A model generated the notes under the pieces. The model was not told where the DNA came from, did not search any database, and was given only the letters and a program-made list of their open reading frames with translations. 64,000 nt of DNA, taken from a virus. Location of the stretch: the IMG/VR virus record IMGVR_UViG_3300030333_004348, positions 4,137 through 68,136 of that record. One strand, written 5' to 3'. Below, in pieces: positions 39,001 through 51,695 of this stretch (the first letter of the stretch is position 1; the number at the start of each line of letters is the position of its first letter). The position numbers and the translations under genes were made by a program.

Positions 39001-42000
39001 TGCCCTTAAAGATCAAGCGGGACTTGGCATGGGATGGGCTCTACGTACAGTTAATAATATTACGAGTTTTACTGGGCTCGGATGGGATCAAGCAAAGCAC
39101 CCAGGAGTAGGAGATGTCGCAGCTTTATGGGGCAAAAGATTAGGAGCTTTTGCTTTAGGAAGTATAGCTTATAATGCTGCAGATACATTTACGGATACGT
39201 CAGGTCTTTTTGATTGGACATTTTTAGATGAAGGAATAACAGTAGGTGTCGCTGATCAAATGGTTAAAGCTAGAATGATGGCTGGCTGGGCTTATGATAA
39301 AATGGGAATAGATAATGCCGCGCGTTACATGGAAGGTCTTATGCCTGGCTCTACCAAAGTATTACCTGGAGCAGCGGTTGGATACGCTGCTGGAGGTATT
39401 AAGGGAGCTATATTAGGTGGGTTAGCAAATGCTTATTTACAGCCTCAACTTGCAGAAGGTCCTTTATCTTTCTTAGCAGCTCTACCTCCTTTAGCACCCT
39501 TTGTTACAGATATGACTAAAGATTTTAAATCTTTACAAAATATATATGAAGGAACAGAGCTACTTCCAGTAAGAAAAGGAAGAGGTTGGACTTTAGGCCT
39601 AACTCCTATAGCTGGAGGCAGAATAGAAAGATATGAACCGGGATGGTATCCTAGATTAAAATCTCAGTTCCAAGCTGGTCCTGAGTTGTATGGATCAAAA
39701 CTAGAACAATTTTTAGCTAAAGATATTCCACTAGTCGACTTTTCTTTAATGGATATAGTAGATCCACACTACTTAGAGAAAAAACAATATCAGAATAGGC
39801 CTTTCCATGAGCCTTCTACCGTATTTTCAGAAGTCCCTTTAGTTGGGCCCACTCTAGGAGCTACAGTAGGTCGTTTGTACAATAAGCTACATCCTATGGC
39901 TTTCTCAGGAGAAATGCATGCTAATGAAGCTAGACAAGCATATATGAAGGGTCAATCTTTTAATTGGAAGGGAGAAAGTTTAGGAACATATGGACCCCAA
40001 TATATGGGCTTTATGGGGGATTTTTCAGAGCAGGGCGCTGATGGAAAAAAAGCTGTAATGTCTCAAAATAATTTAAAACCTCTAATAGGAGAACAAGTTT
40101 ATAAGGGTTGGATAGAGCCTCTAGGTCTACCTGGTTTTATTACTTCAGCTATGTTATGGGGAGGAGATGAGCCCTTTACTGATATTCCAGTAGCTCAGAA
40201 TGCAAATATATTAGATTCTCATGCAAGAACTTTTTGGGATCAAGGTTTTGGTGATTTAATGGGAACTACTGAGTTATACAGAAGGGCTGTTCCTAGGCCT
40301 CGTACTAGTTTTGAATCAATTAATATTTTACAAAATCAAATGCCAGGATGGATGCCTGAAAACTTTCAACAAGGTGATCCTTATTGTTTAACTCCTGAGA
40401 CTTATGTTGAAACATCTTCTGGACTAAAAAGAGCTGACTCTATAAGTGAAGGAGATTTAGTAAGAACTTTACAAGGCAGATATTTTCCTGTTTCTGCAAC
40501 TAAAACTAGGAAAGTAGATGAAGATATATATGTGATTACCATAAATGGATTAGAAGACTTCCCAATCAGAGTAACAGGTGGGCATCCATTTTATATAGAT
40601 GAAGAATGGAAATTTGCAAAAGATTTAACAGAATCTGATAAAGTTACTTATCCATTACTTAATATAGATTTACCTTCTTCTGTCTCTGTTTTAACGGATG
40701 GAAGTGTAGCTGTAACTGCTTCTTTAGCTTATTTATATGGATTATTATCTAGGTGGTCTGATCATTCTAATCCTACAAACTTAAGATCTGATATTCCTGA
40801 AACTACTGAACTAGAAATTAAACAATATAGTGAATCATTATTAAAAAATAAAATTGATTATGAAATGATTCACCACTTTCAAAGATATGGACCTTCTAAG
40901 CACTTTGGAGATGCGGATCTTCCAGTACTATTAAATTACTTAAAACCTTTTTTTACAGTAACTGCAGATAAAACATTAGAGTTTGCTGTTCATACAAAAA
41001 ATGCTGCATACAATATATGGTCCTTGTTACTGCAAAACAAGATAGTTTCTAAAATAAAGTGTAATAAAATTATTATTGAAGGTACTTATGCAGTAGAAGT
41101 TGCGTTCTTTATGGGCATGACTCTGAACTACAGAACTCCTGCTTCAACTCCTTGTACATTTGATATGAATAAAAATACAACAAAGCACGGTCCAATAGTC
41201 TACTTAGATATAGCTTCTATAACTAAAGAAAAATATAAAGGATTAGTGTATGCAATAGATGTAGGCGAAGACGCAACCTTCACAGTACCAGGAGCAGCTG
41301 TACATAATAGTAAGATAGCAAGAGGTGAATTACTTTTACCTGGAAAGTCTTTTGAAAGTTTTTTTAATCCCAAAATAACATTCCCTACTGGTGCGTCGCA
41401 GTTAGGTAATACTCCTTATGAGCAGGCATTACATATGATAGGTCTTGGGGATTTTGCTATGGGCAACAACCCTGGTACAGATGATATACTAGAAGAAGGT
41501 ACTCAAATTCACGAAATGGTTCAAAGTCAATTAGTACAAGCTGGTCTAGTATCTCGGGTAGAGGCGCTGGTTGCTGATACAGAAAATAATATAAAAGGTT
41601 ACGTGGATGCCATGTATAATGATCCACGGACTGGAAAAGAATTACCAATTGAGATTAAGAGTATTGGGGGTGTAGGTTTGTATAAACTTAATGAACCCAA
41701 ATGGAAACATAAAATTCAGTTAAACACTTATATGGCTATGCTAGGAGTAACTAGTGGTAAACTCTTATACGTCTCTCGAGACGATCCTTCACAAACTAAA
41801 GAGTTTACTGTACGTTTTAATCCTAACCTTTGGGAAAGTACCAAAGGAGATTTAGCCCAAGCTAGGATGCTAGCAACTGAATATTTAGAACAAGGATATG
41901 GGCATGCTATGGAAGGTTACTCTTACTTAGACAGGCTACAAGTGTTACTAAATGCATCCCCCTACTCTAGAAAATTTAGAGAAACTCAAAAGCTCGTACA

Positions 42001-43426
42001 GCATCAATTAGATCAGGGATATTTATCTCCAGAAGAAGAAGAGCAGTTTACTACCTTAGGGAAACAGCATCAGTCTATGCTAAGAAAATATCAAATGTAC
42101 CCTAGAAGATTCCAGGTATCTGATTTATTAGACCCTGATACAGAGTACCAAAATTTATCTGATAATGAGAACATACAACCAGCAAGTGATTATAATATTT
42201 TTGAAAGAATAGTAGGATCGGTTTGGGAAACAGCAACACACTTAAGGTCACCAATTCACACAAAACTAATTGGCCATTATTCTCCAGAAGAAACATATGA
42301 GAATATGATGGTTAGAGGAGATTTCGCATCTTGGACTAGACCTATAGAAGGCTTTGTTAAGCCCTATGGAAGAGGCTTAAGGGCTGCAGATACACCGTTA
42401 CAGGGAGCTATTTCTTATGGAATGGGAGGAGCCCTTCTAGGAGGAGGTATACCTGGTGCTATTTTTGGTACTGTATTCGGCGGAGTATATGGTAGTCTGC
42501 ATGGAATGTATAGAAGTATGACTGGAACGAATTACACTCCTGATAGCTTTAAAGATAGAGTAGCAATGCAAGAGTATTTTGATAAAGTTGAATACGCAAG
42601 AGCACTTCAAATGTATAAAACTACAGGTAATAAAGAATGGAGAAGAGAAATCACTAGTAATCCATATGGATGGATTGAAACGGGAGGAGGACAAGCTTTT
42701 AATGTTCCTATGCCTAGTGCGTCTATTGGGTACAACAGTAGAGTAGCTAATCAAGCTTATAATACAATAGGAAGTCCAGATAGAGGATTCAGATCTCCCT
42801 ATGGAGGTCAGGACTCTCAACGTAGTTTAGATTTTGATCCGGACGTTAATATGTATAGTGCATTTTCTGCATTAGCTCCGTGGGACAGACCCTTTTGGAC
42901 AGCATTTATGGATACACCTGAAAACAAAAGAGCAGATGTGTTAAATGTAGTAGATAAACAAATGGGAGATATGCTACAAATATACTGGGGCAAAGGAGAA
43001 AATGTAGCAATGCCTAACATGGGAAGCTACTTTACTAATAATTATAACCCATCAAACCTACATCCATTAATGGATCCTACCGTTAATATAGAAGACTACC
43101 AAGTAGTAACTGCTGAGGATAATGGATTAAACGCACACGATTTTGGTTTAGGATGGCGTGATCAAATGAGAAGGATAGCTACTAATCCTTTTGCTATAAA
43201 ACCTGTAGATATAGAAGCTCAAGGAGTTTCCCCTTCTACGATAAGAAGTAATTTAAGTCAGGGAGAAATTAGAGATACATTAAGCAAACTACTAGAAAGA
43301 ATGGGATATGGGGGAGCTACAATTAATGTCAGACAGATACCGTCTAATAGCTCTGATACTACAGTAGTAATAAATGTTAAAAGAAGTTCAACTAATGACT
43401 TAATAGATCGGATGGGAGGCATTTAA
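36083..43426 (+). CDS. tape-measure-position giant virion protein with intein and PD-(D/E)XK nuclease domain
   Basis: Follows the tail chaperones; TTG start with AAGGAG SD; Gly/Ala-rich hydrophobic segments; intein; GTQIHE..GYVDA..IEIKS..QLNTYM..LLYVSRD. Confidence 0.7.
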   Translation: MREYEEDLNPRQDPGSAIAKSLGQAVATMGLFVGGTILANMGFKRGKSAIFKSMAQHSKGFRDAAKYAQKEGDSLTAFLSRANFQKGSVMDSVGGLADWMHTAANSARYSSIKESWAGMSKIERYRNYRSLGRAGKSAVHSGMAASYAKETAFFFPVIYALDHNIGKFGGGPDTRERPAWYNIPGHAKEMAKFIPMYLAGDAIFRGGSKVVGAGFGMLADSFAKSIPKGVQSGVAETISFFNSGKYLDQEFMGRPIKEWGSELKSSMGAFAHAVGPGRKKLVTATKKTQSGYERTGNSIRNIYKRAVEDFHEKKSHLYKVSLRKYKQRMQRMDKNSDFAVRDNFDDFIHFMGTGSGESLYARIMGTTNYAGSGRSFVHKQFYNESDRMPYMAKLLGLRRARGSDFKDKDTLGSIYDTLKKKHGREGKKKLLKENSKDEFIDNLVSRNMFIHEGSGKLVDLAPMSGKYWSSKMLHSKPLVLGGKFSMADLFPFKVMAADQQAFHRIIPMEEFAAINPANQTQAFKNSPWVTHSGMGGRSKVHPNIYRFNKEVDGLGLLTRKAGDLNYNLFDYQGGAWDQIGRDLKAGLVSDSPKLANVYIQGLIRQHTTPKDRMSTPSDNPIVSFIQRNFSLLDNEGITPSWFGKLRKFMPDNINSLLDSKSSFPYSTGFAKNTLSDLKSWGKGVDDNVLGSKSASHRIANLLARTRTYGNKMSKESFNETLSEDRFMGRVLEFLDNQGVIQKSSQHERFDANAILADDDALIGIASDLFKKSKDSPIKVFGEDKAIDRIIESVKTTGRGLADRGGVETPKQKIKRFIYEYAVHHSNLNRLEENHIVSLLRGDLQQAATEGIVSSKQLAKVDFGMFADKLRYRLSGVVPENLLDPEVGGVFSTEAINRVSKSIGDKHQSFLNLVKTDLLDRTALSGKGSAIDELMAQTNTFDTVYAANSSFVVDDVVRAANQVRDANPFVAYPAALKDQAGLGMGWALRTVNNITSFTGLGWDQAKHPGVGDVAALWGKRLGAFALGSIAYNAADTFTDTSGLFDWTFLDEGITVGVADQMVKARMMAGWAYDKMGIDNAARYMEGLMPGSTKVLPGAAVGYAAGGIKGAILGGLANAYLQPQLAEGPLSFLAALPPLAPFVTDMTKDFKSLQNIYEGTELLPVRKGRGWTLGLTPIAGGRIERYEPGWYPRLKSQFQAGPELYGSKLEQFLAKDIPLVDFSLMDIVDPHYLEKKQYQNRPFHEPSTVFSEVPLVGPTLGATVGRLYNKLHPMAFSGEMHANEARQAYMKGQSFNWKGESLGTYGPQYMGFMGDFSEQGADGKKAVMSQNNLKPLIGEQVYKGWIEPLGLPGFITSAMLWGGDEPFTDIPVAQNANILDSHARTFWDQGFGDLMGTTELYRRAVPRPRTSFESINILQNQMPGWMPENFQQGDPYCLTPETYVETSSGLKRADSISEGDLVRTLQGRYFPVSATKTRKVDEDIYVITINGLEDFPIRVTGGHPFYIDEEWKFAKDLTESDKVTYPLLNIDLPSSVSVLTDGSVAVTASLAYLYGLLSRWSDHSNPTNLRSDIPETTELEIKQYSESLLKNKIDYEMIHHFQRYGPSKHFGDADLPVLLNYLKPFFTVTADKTLEFAVHTKNAAYNIWSLLLQNKIVSKIKCNKIIIEGTYAVEVAFFMGMTLNYRTPASTPCTFDMNKNTTKHGPIVYLDIASITKEKYKGLVYAIDVGEDATFTVPGAAVHNSKIARGELLLPGKSFESFFNPKITFPTGASQLGNTPYEQALHMIGLGDFAMGNNPGTDDILEEGTQIHEMVQSQLVQAGLVSRVEALVADTENNIKGYVDAMYNDPRTGKELPIEIKSIGGVGLYKLNEPKWKHKIQLNTYMAMLGVTSGKLLYVSRDDPSQTKEFTVRFNPNLWESTKGDLAQARMLATEYLEQGYGHAMEGYSYLDRLQVLLNASPYSRKFRETQKLVQHQLDQGYLSPEEEEQFTTLGKQHQSMLRKYQMYPRRFQVSDLLDPDTEYQNLSDNENIQPASDYNIFERIVGSVWETATHLRSPIHTKLIGHYSPEETYENMMVRGDFASWTRPIEGFVKPYGRGLRAADTPLQGAISYGMGGALLGGGIPGAIFGTVFGGVYGSLHGMYRSMTGTNYTPDSFKDRVAMQEYFDKVEYARALQMYKTTGNKEWRREITSNPYGWIETGGGQAFNVPMPSASIGYNSRVANQAYNTIGSPDRGFRSPYGGQDSQRSLDFDPDVNMYSAFSALAPWDRPFWTAFMDTPENKRADVLNVVDKQMGDMLQIYWGKGENVAMPNMGSYFTNNYNPSNLHPLMDPTVNIEDYQVVTAEDNGLNAHDFGLGWRDQMRRIATNPFAIKPVDIEAQGVSPSTIRSNLSQGEIRDTLSKLLERMGYGGATINVRQIPSNSSDTTVVINVKRSSTNDLIDRMGGI
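40385..41308 (+). mobile_element. intein (308 aa) with decayed LAGLIDADG region
   Basis: GDPY|CLTPETYV..VTGGHPF..LAYLYGLL..VYAIDV..AAVHN|SKIARGE. Splicing residues are intact; the endonuclease motifs lack the acidic residues. Confidence 0.9.
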
Positions 43427-46400
43427 TGGCAGAAAAATCAGATAAAAGAATTGATGAAATTTTAGATGATGCTACCAATGATAAGTCTTTAGAAAGAAGA
43501 GGAGGTAGTGCGATTGCAGCATTGATAGCGTTACCTTCAATGTTAGGAATTGTTAGTTCTCAAAGTCAATGGATTTATAACGGAGGACTTCAATCGTTTA
43601 GAGAAACTATAGCAAGAAGGCTAGGAGACTTATTTGCTGCTGCAGAGGATAATGCCATAGTAAATTCTATGTCAGGCTCTAAGCCTATACAAGTACAAGT
43701 TAAAAATCTTAAAGAAGAACTTTTAAATAAAGCTAGAAATTCTGCAGGGGCTGAAACATTTAAGAAAGCGTCAGCTATACCAAACTGGGCTCAATCTGCG
43801 GAAGAATTAGCTAGAGACAGAGAGGCTGCTTTTCCTTCCAGAAATATGGTAAATGAAGTATCTGCTCCTGCAGAATTTCCATCTGTTAAACAGCAATTAG
43901 ATTTACCTGTTAATAATGCTCAAAGAGCTTATAATATTATGACTAATAATATAGTAGGGGCAGGTTCTGGGGTAGCTGAAAATGTATTTAGAGTATCAGG
44001 CGAAATGACTTCGGATGATATATTTAAAAATATTAATGCCATGCTGGGAGACTATACAACAGGTCTTACTCCTTCTGAACTTGCAAATGGAGGCAGTAGC
44101 GCTAGTGTAATAAATGAAAGAATGGCAAGTTTAGAACAAAAGCACTTAGCAATACTAAGAGCGGCAGGACATCCAGAGTTATATGACTCTACATTTAGTC
44201 ACACTGCATACGCAAAACAATTAAGTAATGGGTTATCTACTTATCAAAATCAGATTGCTGATTTAAAACAGCAAGTTAATAGATTAAATGAATTAGCTAC
44301 AACAGCGTCTAATCAGAAACAAAGACGAGCAGCTAAAGCTCAACTTAACTTGCTAGCAAAAAATGCAGGTCTTTCGCCTACTCAGTATATCCAAACTATC
44401 AACTCCATGTCTGTACGTGTAGAGTTAACTTCTATACTTAGAGGGGATATACCTTTTCCAAAAGCTACAGTTGTTATTGATATGGGAAAACATAAGTCTT
44501 CTATTAAACAATCTTTTAATATTGAAAGATTTGGAATGTTTCTTCCTCATAGAGGAGCTCAAGTACATAATACAGCACTGCTAGTTCAAGGAACTACAAA
44601 TGCTGTCACTGCGACCTTAGCTGAAATGCAAGATGCATTCTCTAATGTTACTAAACAAATTAATGATTTATTAGATGCAGGATTAGAGGGTTATCAGATA
44701 GATCAAATGAGTGCTCATACAAGAACGGTTTATAGAGAACTAGTTGGACCTCAAACCGCTCACTTACAAGATGTAATGAGAGGATTTAAAGTAATAAGCG
44801 ATGATTTTAGAAATCTAGCAGGAGAACGTCCTGACTTTTTCTATAAAATGCATGCTCTAGCTAAACAATCTTTCTTTACTGACTCTATGACGTACAACAC
44901 AGAGACACCTATAATTGCGTTTGATATGGAGTTTAATTCTCCTACCTCAAGTACTAAAGGTTCACAGCTTCAAACTAGAGATGCACGAACTAGAGTATTT
45001 TGGATGAACTACATTGTTAAAAAGGGCGGATCAGACGAAAAAATTTATAATCATTTTATACTACCAGAAAATTGGGAAGATGTCAGGCAGAGTGCAAGAT
45101 TATTTACAGCAAGACACCAAGATCCTTCAGGCTTTCAATTATTTGAAGATTTAGTTAAAACTTTTAAAGAGGCTCAAACTGATATAGATAGTGGGGCTAG
45201 ATTTGTAGATGTTAAAACTCATGGTTTAACTCGTGCAAAAGAAAGAATATGGAGTGAATGGGGTAGTATGGTGGAGATTGCTAGAAATGCATATAAATCT
45301 CCTGATGGAACAATTGCGTGGCTTGGTCACAATATTGCTAATGCAGACTTACCAATATTAAATAAAACTGTAAGCAGAGTACTAGAAAACAATAAAGACT
45401 TGCTTAGTGCAGATGAAATTAGATTATTAGAAAGATTAAAACTAGATACTAGTTCTCAGAGTTTAGCATCTAAGGGTCTAGTTATGGATACCTATGCTAT
45501 GGCCAGGGCTGCTTTTTTAGATGTTGAAAGAGTACAAAGTGCTAGTCTAGAAAATAGTTTTGAAGTAATTATGAATCAATCTGTTGCAGAAATTAATCCT
45601 GAAAAAGATTACATAAAAGGAGATACGTGGACTAGGGGGTTGTCAGATGCAGTTAAAAGATCTAAGGGAAGAATTAATAATGAAGTTAATAAATATATAA
45701 ATGAGCTTCCTAAAAATGTTAGATTAGGAATAAAAAACTGGATACTTCAAAATCCTGAGGATGTTATAAACACTTTTGGACAACAAGGACATCACTCTGC
45801 TCCTTTTGATACTAGAAAGTCTTTAATACTTAAAGATTTATTAAAATGGAAAATAGATAAAATTAAATCCTCTAACCCAGAGTTGTATAAGTCTATTACT
45901 CAACTAGGTAACACTGCACAACAAATCGTAGAAGGTAAACGTTTTGCATGGTATCGTAATATAGATTTAGCTGATGCTAGTTCTTTGTATGATGTACCAG
46001 AACGACCACAGGGACCCGAAGAATTTGGTAAAAGAATTTTTTCACATTTATTTGCATTTACACCAGCAGGAGCTGCAGCAGGTAGAGGAGGACTATTTGG
46101 TCCAGAAAATTATCTACCTTTTGGACAGTATACTAATTTGCAGAAACAAATGTATCAAACTGCAAGTTCTAAAACACTATTACCTGGTCTAGAGTCTGCA
46201 GAGATAGCTGCTTCAGGCGGACAAATGCCTGTTGTACAGAAAAGTATAGATGCTACTTCAGGGGATAGTTTATTTACTACTAGTTTACAAGCAACTATTT
46301 CAAGAAAATTTAATGAATATCAACAGCGTCTTGGAAGTTTAAATGCACCTGTTGCAAATAGATTTAATGTTATGACTGCCTATTTACCTGATCATAATAG

Positions 46401-49400
46401 TATCCTTGCTCAAGATACTGCTTTATGGGCTAATGAAAGCGCACATCAATTAGCTAGGCACTTTCCAAAAGGAGCAGAAGGAACTCATCCTGCTATTTAT
46501 AGTAAAAAAGCACAAGATATTTTTACAGCTATAAGTACTAGAGGAGCAGCTTCATTTTCTCAAGATCGTAGAACTAAAGCTAAAGCTTTCTTAAAAGATT
46601 TAGGAATAAATAAAAAAGAAACTATTACTGTCAGAGAATTTTTACATAAAGCTCACATGCCTGAAGAGATATTAAATATGGTTGATAATGAAACTATAAG
46701 TCTTGGACGCGGCAAATCTAGGATTAAAATGGGTGATCAACTATTAAAAGATGTTATCCAAATGGATGGAGATAACATGATCATGCAGCTTAGATTTCAA
46801 AACTCTTATAAAGATAGAGTAAATACTTTAATGGGTAAAAATAAAATTAATGTTCTTGAAGCAGGAAGTCCTTTATTGCTAGAAAATGAATTTAACGTTG
46901 ATGGACCAAATAAAAAGTCTAGGTATGATATTAACAATCCTTTAAAATACGCAGCTATTCTTGATCAAATAACTTTTGATTATGATAAAGGAACTTTTAT
47001 CTACGATATTACTCCGTTTGAAACTCCAGGTTTTGCGAAGATAGTTGATAGTGGAAAAATATTTAAAGGAAATATACATGGTATAGGTAATAATCTTAGT
47101 TTTGGTCAAGGCATTGGTTTAGTATTAGCTGCCAAAAAACCTAATATGGCAAATATGATAGATATTCATATGCGTAGATCTTTACTTAAAATACACCAGC
47201 AAGATCTGAGTGTTTTTGAGCAAAAAAGACAGATTAAGAATATGTTAAAAGAAGCTTTTAATGTAACTGATGAAGAGTTTCAAGCTGTATTTAATCTTAC
47301 AGAAGGGAAACCTGCAGCGGGTCAAAGATTTAAAAATCCTATTGTAATGGTTGAGCTTGTAGATAATTATAAACTAGGTTTAGGAAGTAAAGATATAATG
47401 AATAAAGTTTATAAGATGCTATCAAGTGCTGGAATAACTCATGCTGAACTTAGAAAAAACTTTATTAAACAAAATCAAGATATTCTAAAAAAATATGGAA
47501 TAGACAAAGATATAAGAAGTGAACTAGGGAGAGTGTATGATAAGGCTAGAGCTAACCAAGAAAAGGTTATATTATCTATGGCCACCAACTTTGATGCTTC
47601 TACATCAGAAGCTAATGTTATTAATGAAATGCAGAGAATAGTTAGAAAAACAGATGTAGCATTATTTGATCCTGTTATAGGGGTAGTTGGAGATGAAATA
47701 GATGTGAATAAATTACAAACTGGAAAGCTTTATGATGCAGAAGGAAGACTAGCTGCTGGAATTAAAGTAGAAGCATTTGCTACAATTATGCAGGGAGAGT
47801 TTTCAGTAGCTGAAGACTTTATGGACATTAGAGATCCTTTAAAAAGAAGTGTTGATGCTCATGGTATTCCGCTAAACAAAACATTTAGTATTTGGCAGCA
47901 AATGATTATATATAATAATTCTAGAAATAATGAAGTATTTAGAGATGCATTTATGAGACACGCCATGTCAACTTCTGGTAGATATGATAAAAATGTAAAG
48001 AAAGCTTTACAAGTTCATCTAGAAGCAGCAGCTGCACTACAAGATGGATATAATTTTGATAAAATAAAATATAAAACTTTATCCTATGAAGAAATGAAAA
48101 AAGATATAAGACATTTATCAAAACTTGATTTAAGTAAATTAAATGCTGATAAGTTTACAGCTAAAAATATAGAGCAAATCTTACTAGCTAGAGGAGCTTC
48201 AGAAGCTGATGCTTCTTCTTTAGCAGCTGAATTAACAGATGATATATCTTTAAAATTATCTCAAAGCGGAGTAGTAGGAGGATTACTAACGGCAGAATCT
48301 TTCGAAAATATGAATGTATTTAGAGGATCAAGTAAATTTGATTTTGTTAAAATGGAATTGTTATCTAAAGAAAATAAAGCAATGCTACAGAATGCTCTAG
48401 ATGCATTAGGTGATTCTAGATTAGACTTAAAAAACACAATAGATGACATAAATCTAAAAGGAAGAACTAAACTAGGTGCAGAGATTAGAAATGTATTAAG
48501 AGACTTAGCAAAAAGAAATCCAGGCGAACTGAAAATGCTTGAAACAATGTTTAAACAGTTACCTGGCTCATTTATCGATCCTTTAGATGGTATATTAATG
48601 CCTCATATACCAACAAGTAATCCTATATATTTAGCAGAAGAACAAAAATATTTATTAGCAGGAACCTCAGCTAATAAAGTTGAAATGGAAAAAATTATTA
48701 CAGATTTTAATGATGAGCTTAAAAAAGTAGTAGATCCTAGAAGAGGAGGAATAACAGAAAAAGATGTAGTAAAATTAAAAGGAATGTATGATAATCTATT
48801 TGCTGATATAGCTCCAGAAGTTGTTAAAGGTGTATACGGCGGAATAAGTAGTGGAGTATGGAAAGCTAATCAGTTATATGGAAGAGGGCAGCAGTATGCT
48901 AAAGCAGTAGATTCTGTATTATTAGCTAAGCAATCAGTTGGCGCTATGATTGCTAAATATAAAACTGGAGATGATAGCTTTGTTAGAAGCAAGGGTTTTA
49001 AGTCTTGGCAAACGTTTTTAGATTCTCATATATCTAATTATGGATCAGGAAAATCAGATCCAATAGTAGAAGCTCTTACTAAATTAAAAGATAAAGTAGG
49101 TATGAATCAGCTAGATGATGCTATTTCAGAAAATGCTAAAAAACTTAATTTAAGTAAAAGAGACTATCTTAAAACTGCAGAAGGTAAACATTATCTTGAT
49201 ATTAGAAAAAGGTTACGCAGTGCTCCTACTTTAATTGACAGCTTAATCGATGCAACTAAGTCAATTACGTATAGAGATGTGCTTTCTGGTATTACTACTG
49301 GAGGTAGTAGAATTGGAAATCTAGCAGAAGGAGGCTATTTAAGAGCAGCAGGGTTAGGTTTAGGTGAAAACTTTATTGCTTCATCTCAGCTTGCCTCTTC

Positions 49401-51351
49401 TATTGTAAATGGTGATCCATTTGAAATCATGATGGATTTAACTAAAGGAAATGATGCAGCAGATCATTGGAGAAAACTGTTAACAGGTAGAACACATTTA
49501 ATAGATACGTTAGCTCGTAATCCAATGTTTGAAAATAAATTAGGTTATATGTTCGCCAACACATACGTTTATCATGATAAGTTATTTTCAGATATGGGAG
49601 TTAAACCCGCAGAGTTAACAAAGATAGTAGCAATAAATGGATTAGAACTAATGATGATGCGTGGTGACTATGATGGTGACCTTGTTATGAGAATGATGCA
49701 AACTATTAGGCCTACTTCTAGTAATAATGATGATTTTAGCAAAGCTATATTTAAAGAAAGAATGAGAATTATAGAAAGTATGAGAATGAGAGGAATGGAA
49801 ATGGGAGGAGGTGCCCTGGAATTTAGAGGACTCGATTATAAAAATATTGCAGACTTAAATGCAGGAGCTATGGGATGGAATTACGATAGACATCTAATTG
49901 GGGAACTAGGCAATGATGATGTTGAAAAAGTACTAGCAAGACAATTAAATGAAATAGTAACAGGTATAGCTACAAATCATGCAGACGAGACTTTAAAAAA
50001 CAGAGGTTTAACTTACATGGTACAGCAGTTGCTAACGGGTCCTATAGGTGAGCAACAAAAACAGTGGGATTTGATGTACAATGGAAATACTTCATCCCTT
50101 AAAACTGATGTTGTTGACTTTTTAAAATTAAAACTTACAGATCCTACAATGGATGAAGATAGTGTGAGAGGTCTTTTGATTGATTTAGGATATAATGAAG
50201 CTTCTATGGATGGCGCAGACTTAAAAAGAATTGGAGATAGGGCTGTAAGGCAAGCTGATGATGCTTGGAAAATATTAAATTTACAAGCTGACTTTAAAAC
50301 TTTTAATCCAATTACAAAAGAATTTACACCAACTCAAGCATATAGAAATGTAGATTTACTAACAGATTGGATAAGGTTATTTACTCATGAAGTTCCTATT
50401 GAGAAAGCTAAAGGTGCAGGCATGATTCCTGATATTATGGCTACTGTAGCAACTAAGATGCAGTTTCATGCGGGTAGTATTAGTGAAGATCAAAGTAGAC
50501 AAATAGCTTTAAACATTTATGATGGATTAGGTATTAGTGGAGCAAACTTTGCAAATCTTTATATCGATCCTAGCTCCGATATTTTTTCTGGCGGGTCTAT
50601 GCAAGAAGCTAAATTACAGGCATCTAGTATAAAAGAACAATTTGTAGCGAGTGTGCAAGCATCTATGCATTTAAATAAAGTGCATAATACATTAGTAGGA
50701 AGTGGTATGAAGGTAGGAAATATTAATGCTACACTAGCTAGTAGAAATCCTAGAGGAGCCATTTATGGAGCATTGCTTGGAACAATGGGTGAAGGAGCAG
50801 ATAGATGGATAGGGAATGAATTAAGTCAAATAATGTCCCAACAAGATCTTTCTATGATATCGACCGTAGATGACTTTGCCAGTATTGCGTCTCACGAAAT
50901 GGCTAGTCAATTACCAAAAATGGCTCAAAGGTCAGGATTAGAAACTTTATCAAAATTTGGAAAGGGAATGATAGAAGGTATATCACATTCTAAGTGGACA
51001 AAAAGAACTGCAGTAGGTTTATTAGCTTTTTCAATAATGGATCCCAATACAAATTCTTTACTGCTTCCAGATCAGAGAGGGCAAGGAGAAGAAAATGACA
51101 TACCTTCATTAGCAGAAATTAGTAGAGGGTATCGAAGTCGAGAGGTTTCTATGAAAACAACCTCCCCTGTTTTAATAGACAGGCTTCGCCAAGCAGCTGG
51201 ATTACCTACATATATGGGATCCACAGGAGTGAGGAGTGGTTATGTTCCGCCTCCGCCCTCAAATACTATTAGACATAATAGACAGCTTAGAAGAAATAAT
51301 CCTGCTAATCTTCATGAGTTTTCTAGACAAATTGGAGGTGTAATGAAATAG
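43426..51351 (+). CDS. putative single-chain two-barrel virion RNA polymerase fused to a DEDDh 3'-5' exonuclease
   Basis: IAFDMEF / GHNIANAD / MDTY / HSAPFD (DEDDh, ~44911-45810); AKIVDSGKIFKG (two-lysine barrel motif, ~47035-47070); LARNP..MRGDYDGD (49510-49680). Confidence 0.75.
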   Translation: MAEKSDKRIDEILDDATNDKSLERRGGSAIAALIALPSMLGIVSSQSQWIYNGGLQSFRETIARRLGDLFAAAEDNAIVNSMSGSKPIQVQVKNLKEELLNKARNSAGAETFKKASAIPNWAQSAEELARDREAAFPSRNMVNEVSAPAEFPSVKQQLDLPVNNAQRAYNIMTNNIVGAGSGVAENVFRVSGEMTSDDIFKNINAMLGDYTTGLTPSELANGGSSASVINERMASLEQKHLAILRAAGHPELYDSTFSHTAYAKQLSNGLSTYQNQIADLKQQVNRLNELATTASNQKQRRAAKAQLNLLAKNAGLSPTQYIQTINSMSVRVELTSILRGDIPFPKATVVIDMGKHKSSIKQSFNIERFGMFLPHRGAQVHNTALLVQGTTNAVTATLAEMQDAFSNVTKQINDLLDAGLEGYQIDQMSAHTRTVYRELVGPQTAHLQDVMRGFKVISDDFRNLAGERPDFFYKMHALAKQSFFTDSMTYNTETPIIAFDMEFNSPTSSTKGSQLQTRDARTRVFWMNYIVKKGGSDEKIYNHFILPENWEDVRQSARLFTARHQDPSGFQLFEDLVKTFKEAQTDIDSGARFVDVKTHGLTRAKERIWSEWGSMVEIARNAYKSPDGTIAWLGHNIANADLPILNKTVSRVLENNKDLLSADEIRLLERLKLDTSSQSLASKGLVMDTYAMARAAFLDVERVQSASLENSFEVIMNQSVAEINPEKDYIKGDTWTRGLSDAVKRSKGRINNEVNKYINELPKNVRLGIKNWILQNPEDVINTFGQQGHHSAPFDTRKSLILKDLLKWKIDKIKSSNPELYKSITQLGNTAQQIVEGKRFAWYRNIDLADASSLYDVPERPQGPEEFGKRIFSHLFAFTPAGAAAGRGGLFGPENYLPFGQYTNLQKQMYQTASSKTLLPGLESAEIAASGGQMPVVQKSIDATSGDSLFTTSLQATISRKFNEYQQRLGSLNAPVANRFNVMTAYLPDHNSILAQDTALWANESAHQLARHFPKGAEGTHPAIYSKKAQDIFTAISTRGAASFSQDRRTKAKAFLKDLGINKKETITVREFLHKAHMPEEILNMVDNETISLGRGKSRIKMGDQLLKDVIQMDGDNMIMQLRFQNSYKDRVNTLMGKNKINVLEAGSPLLLENEFNVDGPNKKSRYDINNPLKYAAILDQITFDYDKGTFIYDITPFETPGFAKIVDSGKIFKGNIHGIGNNLSFGQGIGLVLAAKKPNMANMIDIHMRRSLLKIHQQDLSVFEQKRQIKNMLKEAFNVTDEEFQAVFNLTEGKPAAGQRFKNPIVMVELVDNYKLGLGSKDIMNKVYKMLSSAGITHAELRKNFIKQNQDILKKYGIDKDIRSELGRVYDKARANQEKVILSMATNFDASTSEANVINEMQRIVRKTDVALFDPVIGVVGDEIDVNKLQTGKLYDAEGRLAAGIKVEAFATIMQGEFSVAEDFMDIRDPLKRSVDAHGIPLNKTFSIWQQMIIYNNSRNNEVFRDAFMRHAMSTSGRYDKNVKKALQVHLEAAAALQDGYNFDKIKYKTLSYEEMKKDIRHLSKLDLSKLNADKFTAKNIEQILLARGASEADASSLAAELTDDISLKLSQSGVVGGLLTAESFENMNVFRGSSKFDFVKMELLSKENKAMLQNALDALGDSRLDLKNTIDDINLKGRTKLGAEIRNVLRDLAKRNPGELKMLETMFKQLPGSFIDPLDGILMPHIPTSNPIYLAEEQKYLLAGTSANKVEMEKIITDFNDELKKVVDPRRGGITEKDVVKLKGMYDNLFADIAPEVVKGVYGGISSGVWKANQLYGRGQQYAKAVDSVLLAKQSVGAMIAKYKTGDDSFVRSKGFKSWQTFLDSHISNYGSGKSDPIVEALTKLKDKVGMNQLDDAISENAKKLNLSKRDYLKTAEGKHYLDIRKRLRSAPTLIDSLIDATKSITYRDVLSGITTGGSRIGNLAEGGYLRAAGLGLGENFIASSQLASSIVNGDPFEIMMDLTKGNDAADHWRKLLTGRTHLIDTLARNPMFENKLGYMFANTYVYHDKLFSDMGVKPAELTKIVAINGLELMMMRGDYDGDLVMRMMQTIRPTSSNNDDFSKAIFKERMRIIESMRMRGMEMGGGALEFRGLDYKNIADLNAGAMGWNYDRHLIGELGNDDVEKVLARQLNEIVTGIATNHADETLKNRGLTYMVQQLLTGPIGEQQKQWDLMYNGNTSSLKTDVVDFLKLKLTDPTMDEDSVRGLLIDLGYNEASMDGADLKRIGDRAVRQADDAWKILNLQADFKTFNPITKEFTPTQAYRNVDLLTDWIRLFTHEVPIEKAKGAGMIPDIMATVATKMQFHAGSISEDQSRQIALNIYDGLGISGANFANLYIDPSSDIFSGGSMQEAKLQASSIKEQFVASVQASMHLNKVHNTLVGSGMKVGNINATLASRNPRGAIYGALLGTMGEGADRWIGNELSQIMSQQDLSMISTVDDFASIASHEMASQLPKMAQRSGLETLSKFGKGMIEGISHSKWTKRTAVGLLAFSIMDPNTNSLLLPDQRGQGEENDIPSLAEISRGYRSREVSMKTTSPVLIDRLRQAAGLPTYMGSTGVRSGYVPPPPSNTIRHNRQLRRNNPANLHEFSRQIGGVMK

Positions 51352-51695
51352 TGAAGACTATTATTGAAATTACTCTACAACCCTTGCCATATGAACACAA
51401 TGTTGTTAATCTAGCTGGCTACCTACAGGCTGTTATTTCAGAAATAACAAATTCTGCAACAATAGTCGATATAAATGACTTTGATTTTACAGATAAAATG
51501 TCTATATTTAGGTCTATGCGTCAAGCATCTCCTACACATCAGAACTCAAGTTTGTCTAGATCTGGAATCACTATAGGTGGATCAAATTCTATGTCTCCTC
51601 ACTATCAAGCTTCTAGCTTGGTAAACACAGCCGCTGCACACAGAGGACATGGTTTTCCAATGAATACAAACAATAATCAAGGAAATAGAAATTAA
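51351..51695 (+). CDS. hypothetical protein
   Basis: 114 aa; coupled at both ends (TAGTG, TAATG). Confidence 0.55.
   Translation: MKTIIEITLQPLPYEHNVVNLAGYLQAVISEITNSATIVDINDFDFTDKMSIFRSMRQASPTHQNSSLSRSGITIGGSNSMSPHYQASSLVNTAAAHRGHGFPMNTNNNQGNRN

What the first reader, a model, noticed from the sequence alone, without database searches (positions are those of the whole stretch)
43426..51351. Single-chain two-barrel RNA polymerase fused to an intact DEDDh exonuclease, encoded inside a myovirus tail module
Seen: one 2641-aa ORF carries, in order, a complete DEDDh set (ExoI FDMEF ~44920, ExoII GHNIANAD ~45325, DTY, ExoIII HSAPFD ~45793), a K-x8-KG segment (AKIVDSGKIFKG ~47035), and RNP (49516) followed ~50 aa later by MRGDYDGD (49657-49680). 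Established: RxP...DxDGD is the Mg-binding barrel of beta'-type polymerases, two conserved lysines mark the beta-type barrel, and crAss-like phages package single-chain two-barrel RNAPs. Inference: this is a virion-delivered RNAP with its own 3'-5' nuclease, which could proofread, trim transcript ends or process the entering DNA. It is translationally coupled to the tape-measure-position gene. I do not know of a characterised RNAP with a DEDDh fusion.
Basis: partly seen in the sequence, partly recalled or inferred. Interest (0 to 1): 0.92.

Follow-up and report, generated by a model that had tools for sequence, protein, structure and literature searches.

The report
Giant tail-gene exonuclease–RNA polymerase fusion
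A 2,641-residue protein encoded among the tail genes of an uncultured large contractile-tailed phage most likely joins an intact 3'-5' exonuclease to a very diverged one-chain relative of the cell's RNA polymerase, so the phage probably carries its own transcription enzyme into the host.

Summary
ORF 43426-51351 (+) encodes 2,641 aa, and every quoted motif sits at the stated place. In 11 full-length relatives (identity down to 18%) only 65 columns are invariant. They include D500/E502 (ExoI), D641 (ExoII), K1214, R2031/P2033 and D2081/D2083/D2085.

No sequence tool names the protein: Pfam, PHROGs, PDB and 50,697 phage genomes gave nothing. Both AlphaFold models were too poor to test the folds (pLDDT 42 and 60.5; under 50 at DYDGD).

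The best support is indirect. A second family of tail-module giants from Bacillus jumbo myoviruses (KLEB27-3 gp034; 36 members) has the same layout. One member passes Pfam's threshold for the beta' catalytic barrel. An E. coli DEDDh profile hits its N-terminal domain (E 3e-4). My family matches it collinearly by HHalign at the exonuclease (E 1e-3 to 0.02), the lysine barrel (0.02) and the DxDGD loop (0.005-0.03).

The gene lies in a sheath-tube-giant-giant-lysin module, syntenic with Bacillus phage 0305phi8-36. Virion packaging and activity are inferred, not shown.

This scan has noted the same exonuclease-polymerase architecture on other genomes; I found no paper describing it. Verdict: a new, very divergent variant of the known virion two-barrel RNAP kind; confidence about 0.6.

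The parts
43426..51351 (+). Whole gene, 2641 aa (P0001); start overlaps the stop of the upstream 2447-aa gene (TAATG), stop overlaps the GTG of the downstream 114-aa gene (TAGTG)
43414..43419 (+). Shine-Dalgarno-like GGGAGG, 6 nt before the ATG
   Evidence: read directly
43504..43560 (+). Conserved N-terminal hydrophobic segment (aa 27-45, ..AALIALPSMLGIV..; P37, L40, G41 invariant); the only stretch with Kyte-Doolittle mean >1.5 over 19 aa
44893..45855 (+). DEDDh (DnaQ/RNase T-like) exonuclease-like domain, aa ~490-810, with long insertions between the motifs
   Evidence: Invariant D500, E502, D641; near-invariant H790, D795. HHalign to the family B exonuclease domain: E 0.022 whole against whole, 9.8e-4 in the sliding scan. 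To the E. coli DEDDh profile: ExoII E 0.3/0.076, ExoIII P 0.006. Fold not confirmed.
44920..44934 (+). ExoI motif FDMEF (D500, E502)
   Evidence: D-x-E in 11 of 11
45325..45348 (+). ExoII motif GHNIANAD (N636, D641), N-x4-D spacing as in the E. coli SbcB stretch GYNNVRFD printed and in family B (GYNVHNFD)
45790..45810 (+). ExoIII motif HHSAPFD (H790-x4-D795)
46042..46158 (+). Strongly conserved block SHLFAFTP...GPENYLPFGQYTNLQKQMYQ (aa 873-911), of unknown role; collinear HHalign match to family B aa 1093-1133 (E 0.028)
46975..47280 (+). Candidate beta-type barrel (aa ~1184-1285) with K1205, K1211, K1214-G and KKPNMANMIDIHMRR
   Evidence: K1214 in 15 of 15 rows, K1205 in 14 of 15. Reciprocal best HHalign match to family B aa ~1342-1460: E 0.020 and 0.025 against the whole of the other family. 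With other window borders the match was lost. Top hit on single RpoB falls at PSRMNIGQ (E 0.17), but on the 61-sequence beta profile it falls just after the barrel. Low-confidence beta strands in the model.
49489..49713 (+). Candidate beta'-type catalytic barrel (aa 2022-2096): ARNPMFEN ... RGDYDGDL, with the Asp triad D2081/D2083/D2085
   Evidence: R2031, P2033, D2081, D2083, D2085 invariant in 11 of 11. Top hit on the full beta' profile is NADFDGD, E 0.029. Reciprocal best match with the family B RYP...ADYDGD region, E 0.027/0.017 and 0.0049 in the sliding scan. RxP and DxDGD align together over 60 columns, P 7.5e-4. Fold not confirmed (pLDDT under 50).
50995..51117 (+). C-terminal hydrophobic segment followed by the invariant motif DPNTNS..LPDQRG.GEE.DIPSL (aa 2524-2564); family B and 0305phi8-36 gp146 have a hydrophobic segment at the same relative place
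51096..51105 (+). One of eight copies of TGACATAHCT, inside the 3' end of the gene and 246 nt before the next start

Best explanation
The gene encodes a giant multidomain protein of the tail/ejection module.

Domain order:
- a conserved hydrophobic N-terminal segment;
- a catalytically intact DEDDh (DnaQ/RNase T-type) 3'-5' exonuclease domain (aa ~490-810);
- a single-chain two-barrel polymerase core, with a beta-like barrel supplying basic residues (K1205/K1214) and, about 870 aa later, a beta'-like barrel supplying the Mg-binding triad (RxP ... GDYDGD, aa 2031-2085);
- a C-terminal hydrophobic segment with an invariant DPNTNS motif.

Inferred mechanism. The protein is made late, coupled to its neighbours, and built into the particle with the two other giants of the module. 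On sheath contraction it is expelled with the DNA. It then transcribes the first phage genes without the host polymerase, as shown for crAss-like gp66 and P23-45 gp96. The exonuclease acts on free 3' ends. The most likely role is trimming backtracked or misincorporated transcript ends for a polymerase that has no Gre/TFIIS partner. Alternatively it attacks host or entering nucleic acid ends.

Shown here: the motifs, their conservation, the gene context and remote profile similarity.
Inferred: the folds, the activities, packaging, delivery and the substrate of the nuclease.
For: 1. Conservation. All predicted catalytic residues are among the 65 invariant or the near-invariant columns of an 11-sequence alignment reaching 18% identity.

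2. Unbiased sliding scan. 34 windows of 150 aa of my family were run against the whole profile of family B, the KLEB27-3 gp034 family (21 of the 36 relatives found, plus gp034 as first row). The two best matches are the exonuclease ExoII-beta5 stretch (E 9.8e-4) and the DYDGD loop (E 4.9e-3). Each falls on the corresponding motif of family B. A third collinear block scores E 0.028.

3. Whole-family comparison. The top hit is the exonuclease, E 0.022 over 84 columns. Reciprocal sub-region searches against the whole of the other family land on the expected barrels: E 0.020/0.025 for the lysine barrel and 0.027/0.017 for the Asp barrel.

4. Family B anchors the annotation.
- P0050 hits Pfam PF00623 (RNA_pol_Rpb1_2) at 25.5 bits against a cut-off of 25.3; P0034 hits it at E 0.015.
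- Its barrel aligns RAPTLH...NADFDGD of full-length RpoC as top hit: E 0.0016 on the single sequence and 7.3e-4 on a 61-sequence profile.
- Its lysine region has GDKMAGRHGNKG...PSRM of beta as top hit (E 0.18).
- A 5-paralogue E. coli DEDDh profile hits its ExoIII at E 3.1e-4 and its ExoI at 0.076, collinearly.

5. Direct comparisons of my family.
- DYDGD region against the full beta' profile: top hit NADFDGD, E 0.029.
- DEDDh profile against the whole family: the only hit is ExoII.
- ExoIII against the DEDDh profile: P 0.006, in register.

6. Context.
- A tail sheath lies upstream (phrog_16991 at 1.2e-27; tblastn to sheaths of 0305phi8-36-like phages).
- The order sheath / tube / ... / giant / giant / lysin-bearing giant mirrors 0305phi8-36 gp139-gp147 and KLEB27-3 gp025-gp036.
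- 0305phi8-36 gp146, the positional counterpart, is annotated in its record as found in virions by mass spectrometry. It shares the exonuclease domain with family B (E 1.9e-4 over 232 columns).
- The gene has 1-nt stop/start overlaps with both neighbours.

7. Precedent. Virion two-barrel RNAPs were recognised from a conserved DxDxD alone in P23-45 gp96 (PMC10770324, sections 6, 11 and 12 read) and in crAss-like phages (abstract of 10.1101/2020.03.07.982082 in the listing).
Against: 1. No standard tool recognises either domain.
- Pfam: no match that covers or names either domain at E <= 1 for the window protein or for any of the 11 family members; only a few weak hits to unrelated families.
- PF00929 against the six frames of the record: nothing at E <= 10.
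- PHROGs: nothing relevant.
- PDB sequences: nothing relevant.
- tblastn on 50,697 phage records: nothing.

2. Structure prediction gave no double-psi barrels.
- The exonuclease model had pLDDT 42.
- The polymerase model had pLDDT 60.5 and pTM 0.32; the DYDGD stretch was under 50 and drawn as helices.
- Foldseek and VIA-align gave only helical-hairpin matches.

3. All HHalign E-values linking my family to anything are modest (1e-3 to 0.03).
- One off-target match was as strong as the weaker true ones: aa 498-579 to family B 942-1038, E 0.012.
- In whole-against-whole mode the DYDGD match was not among the 12 best alignments.

4. Several expected matches were not found.
- ExoI and ExoIII of my family did not find their partners in family B (E 0.24 and 0.6, off target).
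- The lysine barrel was lost with other window borders.
- On the 61-sequence beta profile its top hit fell just after the barrel, not on it.

5. Whole-family HHalign against single RpoB, RpoC and phi14:2 gp66 found nothing at the barrels.

6. The barrels are about 870 aa apart.

7. 0305phi8-36 gp146 has the exonuclease but no DxDxD. So a giant in this position need not be a polymerase.

8. No data on expression, packaging or activity.
Confidence: 0.6

Rival explanations
1. Structural or ejection protein (tape-measure-like or inner-tail cargo) that carries only a nuclease domain. On this reading the conserved RxP...GDYDGD loop is a metal-binding or structural site unrelated to nucleotide polymerisation, and there is no two-barrel core.
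For: - The positional counterpart 0305phi8-36 gp146 has the exonuclease domain but no DxDxD at all.
- The predicted model of aa 1160-2349 is mostly helical, as tape measures are, and shows no barrel at DYDGD.
- Language-model neighbours of aa 1960-2340 were tape-measure/minor-tail clusters, but at only 0.78-0.82.
- No profile library recognises a polymerase.
Against: - The Asp triad, the glycine and the upstream RxP are invariant or nearly so across a family at 18% identity.
- The region's top hit on a full-length beta' profile is the catalytic loop itself.
- It is the reciprocal best match of a barrel that passes Pfam PF00623 in family B.
- A conserved basic loop lies upstream.
- The model is under pLDDT 50 exactly where it would matter.
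Confidence: 0.2
2. A real two-barrel polymerase, but not a DNA-dependent transcriptase. It would be either a PolD-like DNA polymerase or primase whose DEDDh domain is a proofreader, or a QDE-1/RdRP-like enzyme copying RNA or single-stranded DNA ends. It would act on the entering genome (end repair, second-strand or primer synthesis) rather than on early promoters.
For: - A dedicated 3'-5' exonuclease is the hallmark of DNA polymerases, and none is fused to any RNAP I found in print (2 papers held all five terms, neither on this subject by title and abstract).
- The motif GDYDGD resembles the RdRP/QDE-1 form (recalled, from no call).
- The superfamily includes the archaeal DNA polymerase PolD (PMC7824862, passage read; PMC10770324, section 11).
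Against: - The nearest anchored relative (family B) matches the beta' domain model of cellular RNAPs, RNA_pol_Rpb1_2.
- The two phage precedents with giant virion proteins are transcriptases (PMC10770324).
- Nothing in the sequence speaks to sugar selectivity, so this is not excluded.
Confidence: 0.1
3. A polymerase-exonuclease that is expressed with the late genes but not packaged. On this reading it is a non-virion enzyme that happens to be encoded in the tail operon, for example one transcribing late genes from the recurrent TGACATAHCT motif.
For: - Packaging was not tested.
- Eight same-strand copies of TGACATAHCT (0.63 expected) lie in this structural region, suggesting phage-specific late transcription signals.
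Against: - Tight translational coupling with structural neighbours.
- The positional counterpart gp146 is recorded as a virion protein, and KLEB27-3 gp034 is annotated 'structural protein'.
- Conserved terminal hydrophobic segments are typical of ejected or tail-lumen proteins (inference).
Confidence: 0.07

Closest known systems
Thermus phage P23-45 gp96: tape-measure-fused virion two-barrel RNAP (Chaban et al. 2024, PMC10770324; sections 6, 11 and 12 read)
   Same: - A giant tail-module protein.
- The polymerase was recognisable only through a conserved DxDGD (DFDGD) with no other detectable similarity.
- It is proposed to enter through the tail and transcribe the earliest genes.
   Different: - gp96 belongs to a siphovirus, is 5,002 aa, has its polymerase at the N-terminus and has no exonuclease.
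- Here the tail is contractile, and a DEDDh domain precedes the core.
- The barrels lie about 870 aa apart.
- I did not fetch gp96, so no sequence comparison was made.
Exonuclease-polymerase giants of Bacillus-type jumbo myoviruses (Bacillus phage vB_BauM_KLEB27-3 gp034, UNY39803.1, 2434 aa, annotated 'structural protein'; 36 relatives)
   Same: - The same order: DEDDh exonuclease, conserved PFG block, basic-loop barrel, RxP...DYDGD barrel at about 79% of the length, C-terminal hydrophobic segment.
- The same place in the tail module.
- Collinear HHalign matches.
   Different: - Only profile-level similarity (E 1e-3 to 0.03); no BLAST or HMMER similarity.
- In family B the exonuclease sits at aa ~90-360; here it sits at aa ~490-810, behind an extra N-terminal region.
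- Family B is detectable by Pfam PF00623; my family is not.
- I found no paper on family B: 0 papers for 'KLEB27-3'.
crAss-like phage virion RNAP (Cellulophaga phage phi14:2 gp66, YP_008242290.1; PDB 6VR4 as cited in PMC10770324)
   Same: A virion-packaged single-chain two-barrel RNAP of about 2,200 aa, encoded beside two other giant virion proteins.
   Different: - Podovirus capsid cargo rather than a myovirus tail module.
- Motif DFDID rather than DYDGD.
- No exonuclease.
- HHalign of my family against gp66 found nothing (probability 0.09%).
Bacillus phage 0305phi8-36 gp146 ('hypothetical tape measure protein', 2537 aa, virion protein by mass spectrometry according to its record)
   Same: - The same position: after sheath, tube and chaperones, and before the lysin-bearing giant.
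- Similar length.
- A DEDDh-like domain with the same GQNVADAD-type ExoII. It matches family B at E 1.9e-4.
- A C-terminal hydrophobic segment.
   Different: - No DxDxD anywhere in gp146.
- The exonuclease sits at aa ~1200-1700.
- No significant direct match to my family (best E 0.14, at the C-terminal segment).
E. coli DEDDh exonucleases (DnaQ, RNase T, Orn, ExoI/SbcB, ExoX; Pfam PF00929)
   Same: - ExoI D-x-E after a hydrophobic strand.
- ExoII (G)HN-x4-D, as in the SbcB stretch GYNNVRFD.
- The D-T motif after beta5.
- ExoIII H-x4-D-T.
   Different: - Inter-motif spacings are about 135 and 150 aa, much longer than in the E. coli domains, whose whole matched stretches were 144-176 aa.
- The Pfam model does not match.
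- Profile similarity is weak: E 0.076-0.3 for ExoII and P 0.006 for ExoIII.

Membership tests
Two-barrel (double-psi beta-barrel) RNA polymerase superfamily | beta'-type barrel carrying the metal-binding DxDxD triad, preceded by RxP | tested here: met
   Met at the sequence level only.
- R2031, P2033, D2081, D2083 and D2085 are invariant in 11 of 11; DxDGD is intact in 16 of 20 rows.
- Top hit on a full-length 61-sequence beta' profile is NADFDGD, E 0.029.
- RxP and DxDGD co-align with the family B barrel, P 7.5e-4.
Two-barrel (double-psi beta-barrel) RNA polymerase superfamily | beta-type barrel supplying two basic residues to the active site | tested here: inconclusive
   - K1205 in 14 of 15 rows and K1214 in 15 of 15.
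- Reciprocal best match with the family B GTK..G.R.T region, E 0.020/0.025, but lost with other window borders.
- Top hit on single RpoB falls at PSRMNIGQ, E 0.17.
- On the beta profile the top hit falls just outside the barrel.
Two-barrel (double-psi beta-barrel) RNA polymerase superfamily | Two DPBB folds facing each other, with bridge helix and trigger loop | tested here: inconclusive
Two-barrel (double-psi beta-barrel) RNA polymerase superfamily | Template-dependent NTP polymerisation | not testable with these tools
   Needs biochemistry.
DEDDh (DnaQ/RNase T-like) 3'-5' exonucleases, Pfam PF00929 | ExoI D-x-E, ExoII N-x(3,4)-D and ExoIII H-x4-D, in this order | tested here: met
   D500/E502 in 11 of 11; D641 in 11 of 11 (N636 in 9 of 11); H790-x4-D795 in 10 of 11.
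DEDDh (DnaQ/RNase T-like) 3'-5' exonucleases, Pfam PF00929 | Significant match to the family's profile | tested here: not met
   - No PF00929 match at E <= 1 for any of the 11 members, nor at E <= 10 on the six frames of the record.
- HHalign with a 5-paralogue E. coli profile: the hits are in the right place but not significant (ExoII E 0.3/0.076; ExoIII P 0.006; ExoI none).
- Indirect link through family B: my family to B at E 9.8e-4 to 0.022; B to DEDDh at E 3.1e-4.
DEDDh (DnaQ/RNase T-like) 3'-5' exonucleases, Pfam PF00929 | RNase H-like fold with the five residues clustered | tested here: inconclusive
   The model from a 3-sequence alignment had pLDDT 42 and was not searched.
crAss-like virion RNAP (phi14:2 gp66 family) | Detectable sequence or profile similarity to gp66; DFDxD motif | tested here: not met
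   HHalign of A5 against gp66 gave probability 0.09%, with no match at the barrels. tblastn against all phage records found nothing. The motif here is DYDGD; in gp66 it is DFDID.
P23-45 gp96-type tape-measure-fused virion RNAP | Homology to gp96/gp64; fusion to a tape measure with membrane and peptidase domains | not tested
   gp96 was not fetched. The likeness is one of architecture and logic only (PMC10770324).
Exonuclease-polymerase tail-module giants of Bacillus-type jumbo myoviruses (KLEB27-3 gp034 family; unnamed in print as far as I could search) | Collinear exonuclease, PFG block, basic-loop barrel and DxDGD barrel; position before the lysin/hub giant | tested here: met
   Four collinear HHalign matches with E 9.8e-4 to 0.028. 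One off-target match at E 0.012. Synteny. The similarity is remote, so at most this is a sister family, not a member.
Virion-packaged, tail-delivered protein | Presence in purified particles and ejection into the host | not testable with these tools
   Context only: tail module, translational coupling, and the positional counterpart gp146 recorded as a virion protein.

The most novel reading that the evidence does not exclude
The DEDDh domain works in cis on the 3' end of the chain that the two-barrel core is making. That would make this the first polymerase of the RNAP/PolD superfamily with a built-in DnaQ-type proofreading or backtrack-rescue nuclease. If the product is RNA, it would be a proofreading transcriptase. 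If the core accepts dNTPs, it would be a phage PolD-like DNA polymerase injected through a contractile tail.
Probability: 0.15. Interest if true: 0.9.

Novelty: new variant of a known kind. Interest (0 to 1): 0.72.

Why it matters
Phage-carried two-barrel RNA polymerases are experimentally known from only a few lineages: crAss-like podoviruses, P23-45-like siphoviruses and phiKZ-like multisubunit enzymes.

If this reading is right, large contractile-tailed phages far from any cultured one also inject a cell-type polymerase. The family has 27 representatives among 1.84 billion clustered proteins and none among 50,697 sequenced phages. The polymerase is hidden in a protein that annotation calls hypothetical or 'tape measure'.

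The fusion to an intact DEDDh exonuclease recurs in a second family with only profile-level similarity to this one. That suggests the nuclease is functionally tied to the polymerase, which no described RNAP has. It makes two questions testable:
- whether a transcriptase can use a DNA-polymerase-style editing nuclease;
- how a 290-kDa enzyme travels through a tail tube.

It also gives a conserved motif set for finding such enzymes in metagenomes.

Tried and rejected
Sequence libraries
- Pfam on the protein and on all 11 family members: nothing relevant.
- PHROGs on the whole protein and on five cut pieces: nothing relevant. The one hit under E 0.001 is phrog_1368 'transcriptional regulator' at aa 201-286 (E 2.5e-4), which I did not follow.
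- PDB sequence search with the protein and with a 4-sequence profile: no relevant hit.
- tblastn against the phage collection: no match.

Searches for relatives
- Shorter stand-alone relatives of the exonuclease part (aa 470-860): none at E <= 1.
- Relatives in 185,579 species genomes: none, so no host or prophage lead.
- The viral and metagenome scans added one locus each.

Structure
- The first prediction job went on a 3-sequence alignment and gave pLDDT 42. In hindsight that job was wasted.
- The second, with 31 rows, gave pLDDT 60.5 with the key loops under 50.
- Foldseek against PDB: no match at E <= 0.001. Several mycobacterial beta' chains appeared at E 1.5-3.8, but the second look showed they match only a helical hairpin, model residues 585-652.
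- I therefore draw nothing from the folds, for or against.

ESM Atlas
- The exonuclease part had an RNase_T cluster at rank 7 (score 0.89), which is a lead only.
- The DYDGD part had only low scores (0.85 or less), among them tape-measure clusters.

HHalign runs that failed
- Whole family against single gp66, RpoB, RpoC, KLEB27-3 gp034 and 0305phi8-36 gp146: no meaningful hit.
- The profile of aa 1160-2349 against the E. coli chromosome: nothing.
- Whole against whole with 12 alternative alignments: the DYDGD loops were not aligned in register.
- ExoI and ExoIII sub-regions against family B: off target.

Considered and rejected
- WKANQLYGRGQQYAKAVD (aa 1812-1829) as an alternative beta-type barrel closer to DYDGD. 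It is conserved, but the model draws it as helices/loop, and it has no match in family B.
- A calcium-binding reading of DYDGD. I set it aside on recalled grounds only: the glycine position and the conserved upstream RxP.

Literature
- Four searches found no paper on an exonuclease-fused two-barrel RNAP or on these families.
- Subscription journals and the supplements of PMC10770324 (its 23 RNAP family alignments) were not visible and might contain them.
- PMC7824862 (passages read) reports a YonO-like single-chain RNAP in 0305phi8-36 under accession ABS83659.1. I did not establish which ORF that is.

Full report
**What is there.** The window is most of a 68-kb IMG/VR virus record that CheckV rates 36% complete. 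ORF 43426-51351 (+) is one open frame of 2,641 aa.
- FDMEF, aa 499-503
- GHNIANAD, aa 634-641
- DTY, aa 688-690
- HHSAPFD, aa 789-795
- AKIVDSGKIFKG, aa 1204-1215
- RNP, aa 2031-2033
- MRGDYDGD, aa 2078-2085

The start codon overlaps the stop of the upstream 2,447-aa gene (TAATG) behind a GGGAGG. The stop overlaps the GTG of the next gene.

**Relatives and conservation.** The protein belongs to a small family.
- A word-indexed search of 5.8 billion proteins gave 3 full-length relatives.
- The viral and metagenome contig scans gave one locus each.
- An exhaustive HMM search of 1.84 billion representatives, using a profile of aa 1160-2349, gave 27 hits. Seven of them are full-length proteins of 2,695-2,994 aa.
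- None was found in 50,697 phage genomes or in 185,579 species genomes.

In the alignment of 11 full-length members (identity to the window protein 76-18%) only 65 columns are invariant. They include D500, E502, D641, D688, K1214, R2031, P2033, D2081, D2083 and D2085. H789/H790, D795, K1205, G2080 and G2084 are near-invariant (row-by-row tables). The most divergent member (P0030) keeps the three aspartates as DFDRD but lacks ExoIII. The motifs are therefore not chance: they are the most constrained residues of the protein.

**What direct annotation says: nothing.**
- Pfam found no family that names either domain on any of the 11 members.
- The RNase_T model found nothing in the six frames of the record at E <= 10.
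- PHROGs, PDB sequences and a search for shorter stand-alone relatives of the exonuclease part were all empty.

**Structure.**
- A model of aa 440-900 from three sequences had pLDDT 42.
- A model of aa 1160-2349 from 31 rows had pLDDT 60.5 and pTM 0.32, with under 50 at both polymerase motifs.
- Fold searches returned only helical hairpins.

I treat the fold question as open. It is neither supported nor refuted.

**A bridging family.** Notes of this scan reported exonuclease-polymerase giants in the tail modules of Bacillales jumbo myoviruses. The sheath of my phage has its only tblastn hits in such phages, so I looked there.

Bacillus phage 0305phi8-36 has the same module order: sheath gp139, tube gp140/141, chaperones, gp145 (1,930 aa), gp146 (2,537 aa, 'hypothetical tape measure', virion protein by mass spectrometry) and gp147 (endolysin). 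My window has sheath (23693-26059), tube, a 2,447-aa ORF, the 2,641-aa ORF and a 3,938-aa ORF with an endolysin-like part.

In Bacillus phage KLEB27-3 the corresponding gp034 (2,434 aa, 'structural protein') reads GYNVHNFD, H-x4-D and RYP...ADYDGD at aa 1933. It has 36 relatives, which I call family B.

Family B can be anchored:
- P0050 reaches Pfam PF00623 (the beta' catalytic barrel) at 25.5 bits against a cut-off of 25.3.
- The family's barrel profile has RAPTLH...NADFDGD of full-length RpoC as its top hit, at E 0.0016, or 7.3e-4 with a 61-sequence beta' profile.
- Its basic-loop region has GDKMAGRHGNKG...PSRM of beta as its top hit (E 0.18).
- A profile of the five E. coli DEDDh paralogues hits its ExoIII at E 3.1e-4 and its ExoI at 0.076, in order.

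**Linking my family to family B.**
- Whole profile against whole profile: the single reported hit is the ExoII-to-beta5 stretch, at E 0.022 over 84 columns. GHNIANADLPIL aligns to GYNVHNFDQPMM.
- Unbiased scan of 34 overlapping 150-aa windows of my family against the entire family B profile: the best two matches were that exonuclease stretch (E 9.8e-4) and the DYDGD loop on ADYDGD (E 4.9e-3). A third collinear match joined the conserved PFG blocks (E 0.028). One off-target match reached E 0.012.
- Sub-region searches run both ways against the whole of the other family landed on the expected partner. The lysine barrel gave E 0.020 and 0.025. The Asp barrel gave 0.027 and 0.017. RxP and DxDGD aligned together over 60 columns at P 7.5e-4.

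**Direct comparisons of my family.**
- The DYDGD region's top hit on the full beta' profile is NADFDGD (E 0.029).
- The DEDDh profile's only hit on my whole family is ExoII (E 0.3).
- ExoIII aligns to ExoIII at P 0.006.

**Against.**
- ExoI and ExoIII did not find their partners in family B.
- The lysine barrel match depends on window borders.
- Its hit on the beta profile falls just outside the barrel.
- In whole-against-whole mode the DYDGD match was not among the 12 best.

Taken together, four collinear matches at the a priori expected places, the identical domain order and the same genomic slot make common ancestry of the two families likely. None of the E-values would stand alone.

**Interpretation.** I conclude, at about 0.6, that this is a tail-module giant combining an intact DEDDh exonuclease with a highly diverged single-chain two-barrel polymerase. 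By analogy with P23-45 gp96 and crAss-like gp66 it would be carried in the particle and expelled into the cell to transcribe the earliest genes (PMC10770324, sections 6, 11 and 12 read; abstract of the crAss preprint in the listing).

Packaging is inferred from three things: the gene's position, its translational coupling, and the virion status recorded for the positional counterpart gp146. gp146 shares the exonuclease domain with family B (E 1.9e-4) but has no DxDxD. That last point keeps alive the rival that a giant in this slot can be a nuclease-bearing structural protein without polymerase (0.2).

The role of the nuclease is open. I favour trimming of transcript 3' ends. A DNA-polymerase-like or RdRP-like chemistry is not excluded (0.1).

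**Comparison and novelty.** The kind, a virion two-barrel RNAP hidden in a giant virion protein, is known. This protein is not a member of the crAss gp66 family. I did not compare it with gp96.

The exonuclease fusion and both families appear in no paper I could find. The jumbo-phage survey PMC7824862 (passages read) mentions only a YonO-like RNAP for 0305phi8-36. The same architecture has, however, been noted repeatedly by this scan on other genomes. So the window adds a new, much more divergent lineage from an uncultured phage rather than a first sighting.

I class it as a new variant of a known kind, with interest 0.72.

Noticed in passing
window 36083-43426 (+): The upstream 2,447-aa giant carries a Cas4/PD-(D/E)xK-type nuclease match at aa 1797-1929 (phrog_1706 E 5.4e-17; phrog_2506 'exonuclease' E 1.4e-8). 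Two consecutive giants of the module therefore each carry a nuclease.
   Followed up: partly
window 51695-63511 (+): The 3,938-aa giant after the 114-aa ORF matches an endolysin PHROG (phrog_20474, E 7.7e-37, aa 3316-3612). It is the positional counterpart of 0305phi8-36 gp147 (endolysin).
   Followed up: partly
window 3937, 11853, 13712, 15531, 26068, 35450, 51096, 63513 (+): TGACATAHCT occurs 8 times, all on the + strand, against 0.63 expected (0 of 100 shuffles reach 8). It is a candidate phage-specific promoter or processing signal in the structural region. One copy lies inside the 3' end of the gene studied.
   Followed up: partly
window 50995-51117 (aa 2524-2564) and 43504-43560 (aa 27-45): There are conserved terminal hydrophobic segments. 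The C-terminal one is followed by the invariant DPNTNS..LPDQRG.GEE.DIPSL. Family B has GA.AFGAMWAASAL.RSGPTPE at the same relative place, and gp146 a similar segment. This may be a membrane-insertion, tube-anchoring or maturation-cleavage signal.
   Followed up: partly
L013:16624-24234 (Bacillus phage 0305phi8-36 gp146): The 'hypothetical tape measure protein', a mass-spectrometry-confirmed virion protein, contains an unannotated DEDDh-like exonuclease domain (YLDIETTG, GQNVADAD, H-x4-D; aa ~1200-1700). It matches family B at E 1.9e-4. It has no DxDxD motif.
   Followed up: partly
L014:13004-20305 (Bacillus phage vB_BauM_KLEB27-3 gp034): This 'structural protein' of 2,434 aa is an exonuclease plus beta'-type DxDGD barrel fusion (weak PF00623 hit at E 0.015; the relative P0050 is over the Pfam cut-off). 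It is not annotated as a polymerase in the record.
   Followed up: yes
window 46042-46158 (aa 873-911): This is among the most strongly conserved stretches of the protein outside the catalytic motifs (GPENYLPFG..N.LQKQ.YQ). It has a collinear counterpart in family B (PFG..NPMARENIMKSVNY). Its function is unknown.
   Followed up: partly
window 26832-31883 (+): A 1,683-aa ORF right after the tube gene matches PHROGs annotated 'major head protein' at aa 57-169 (phrog_9206, E 3.7e-17).
   Followed up: no
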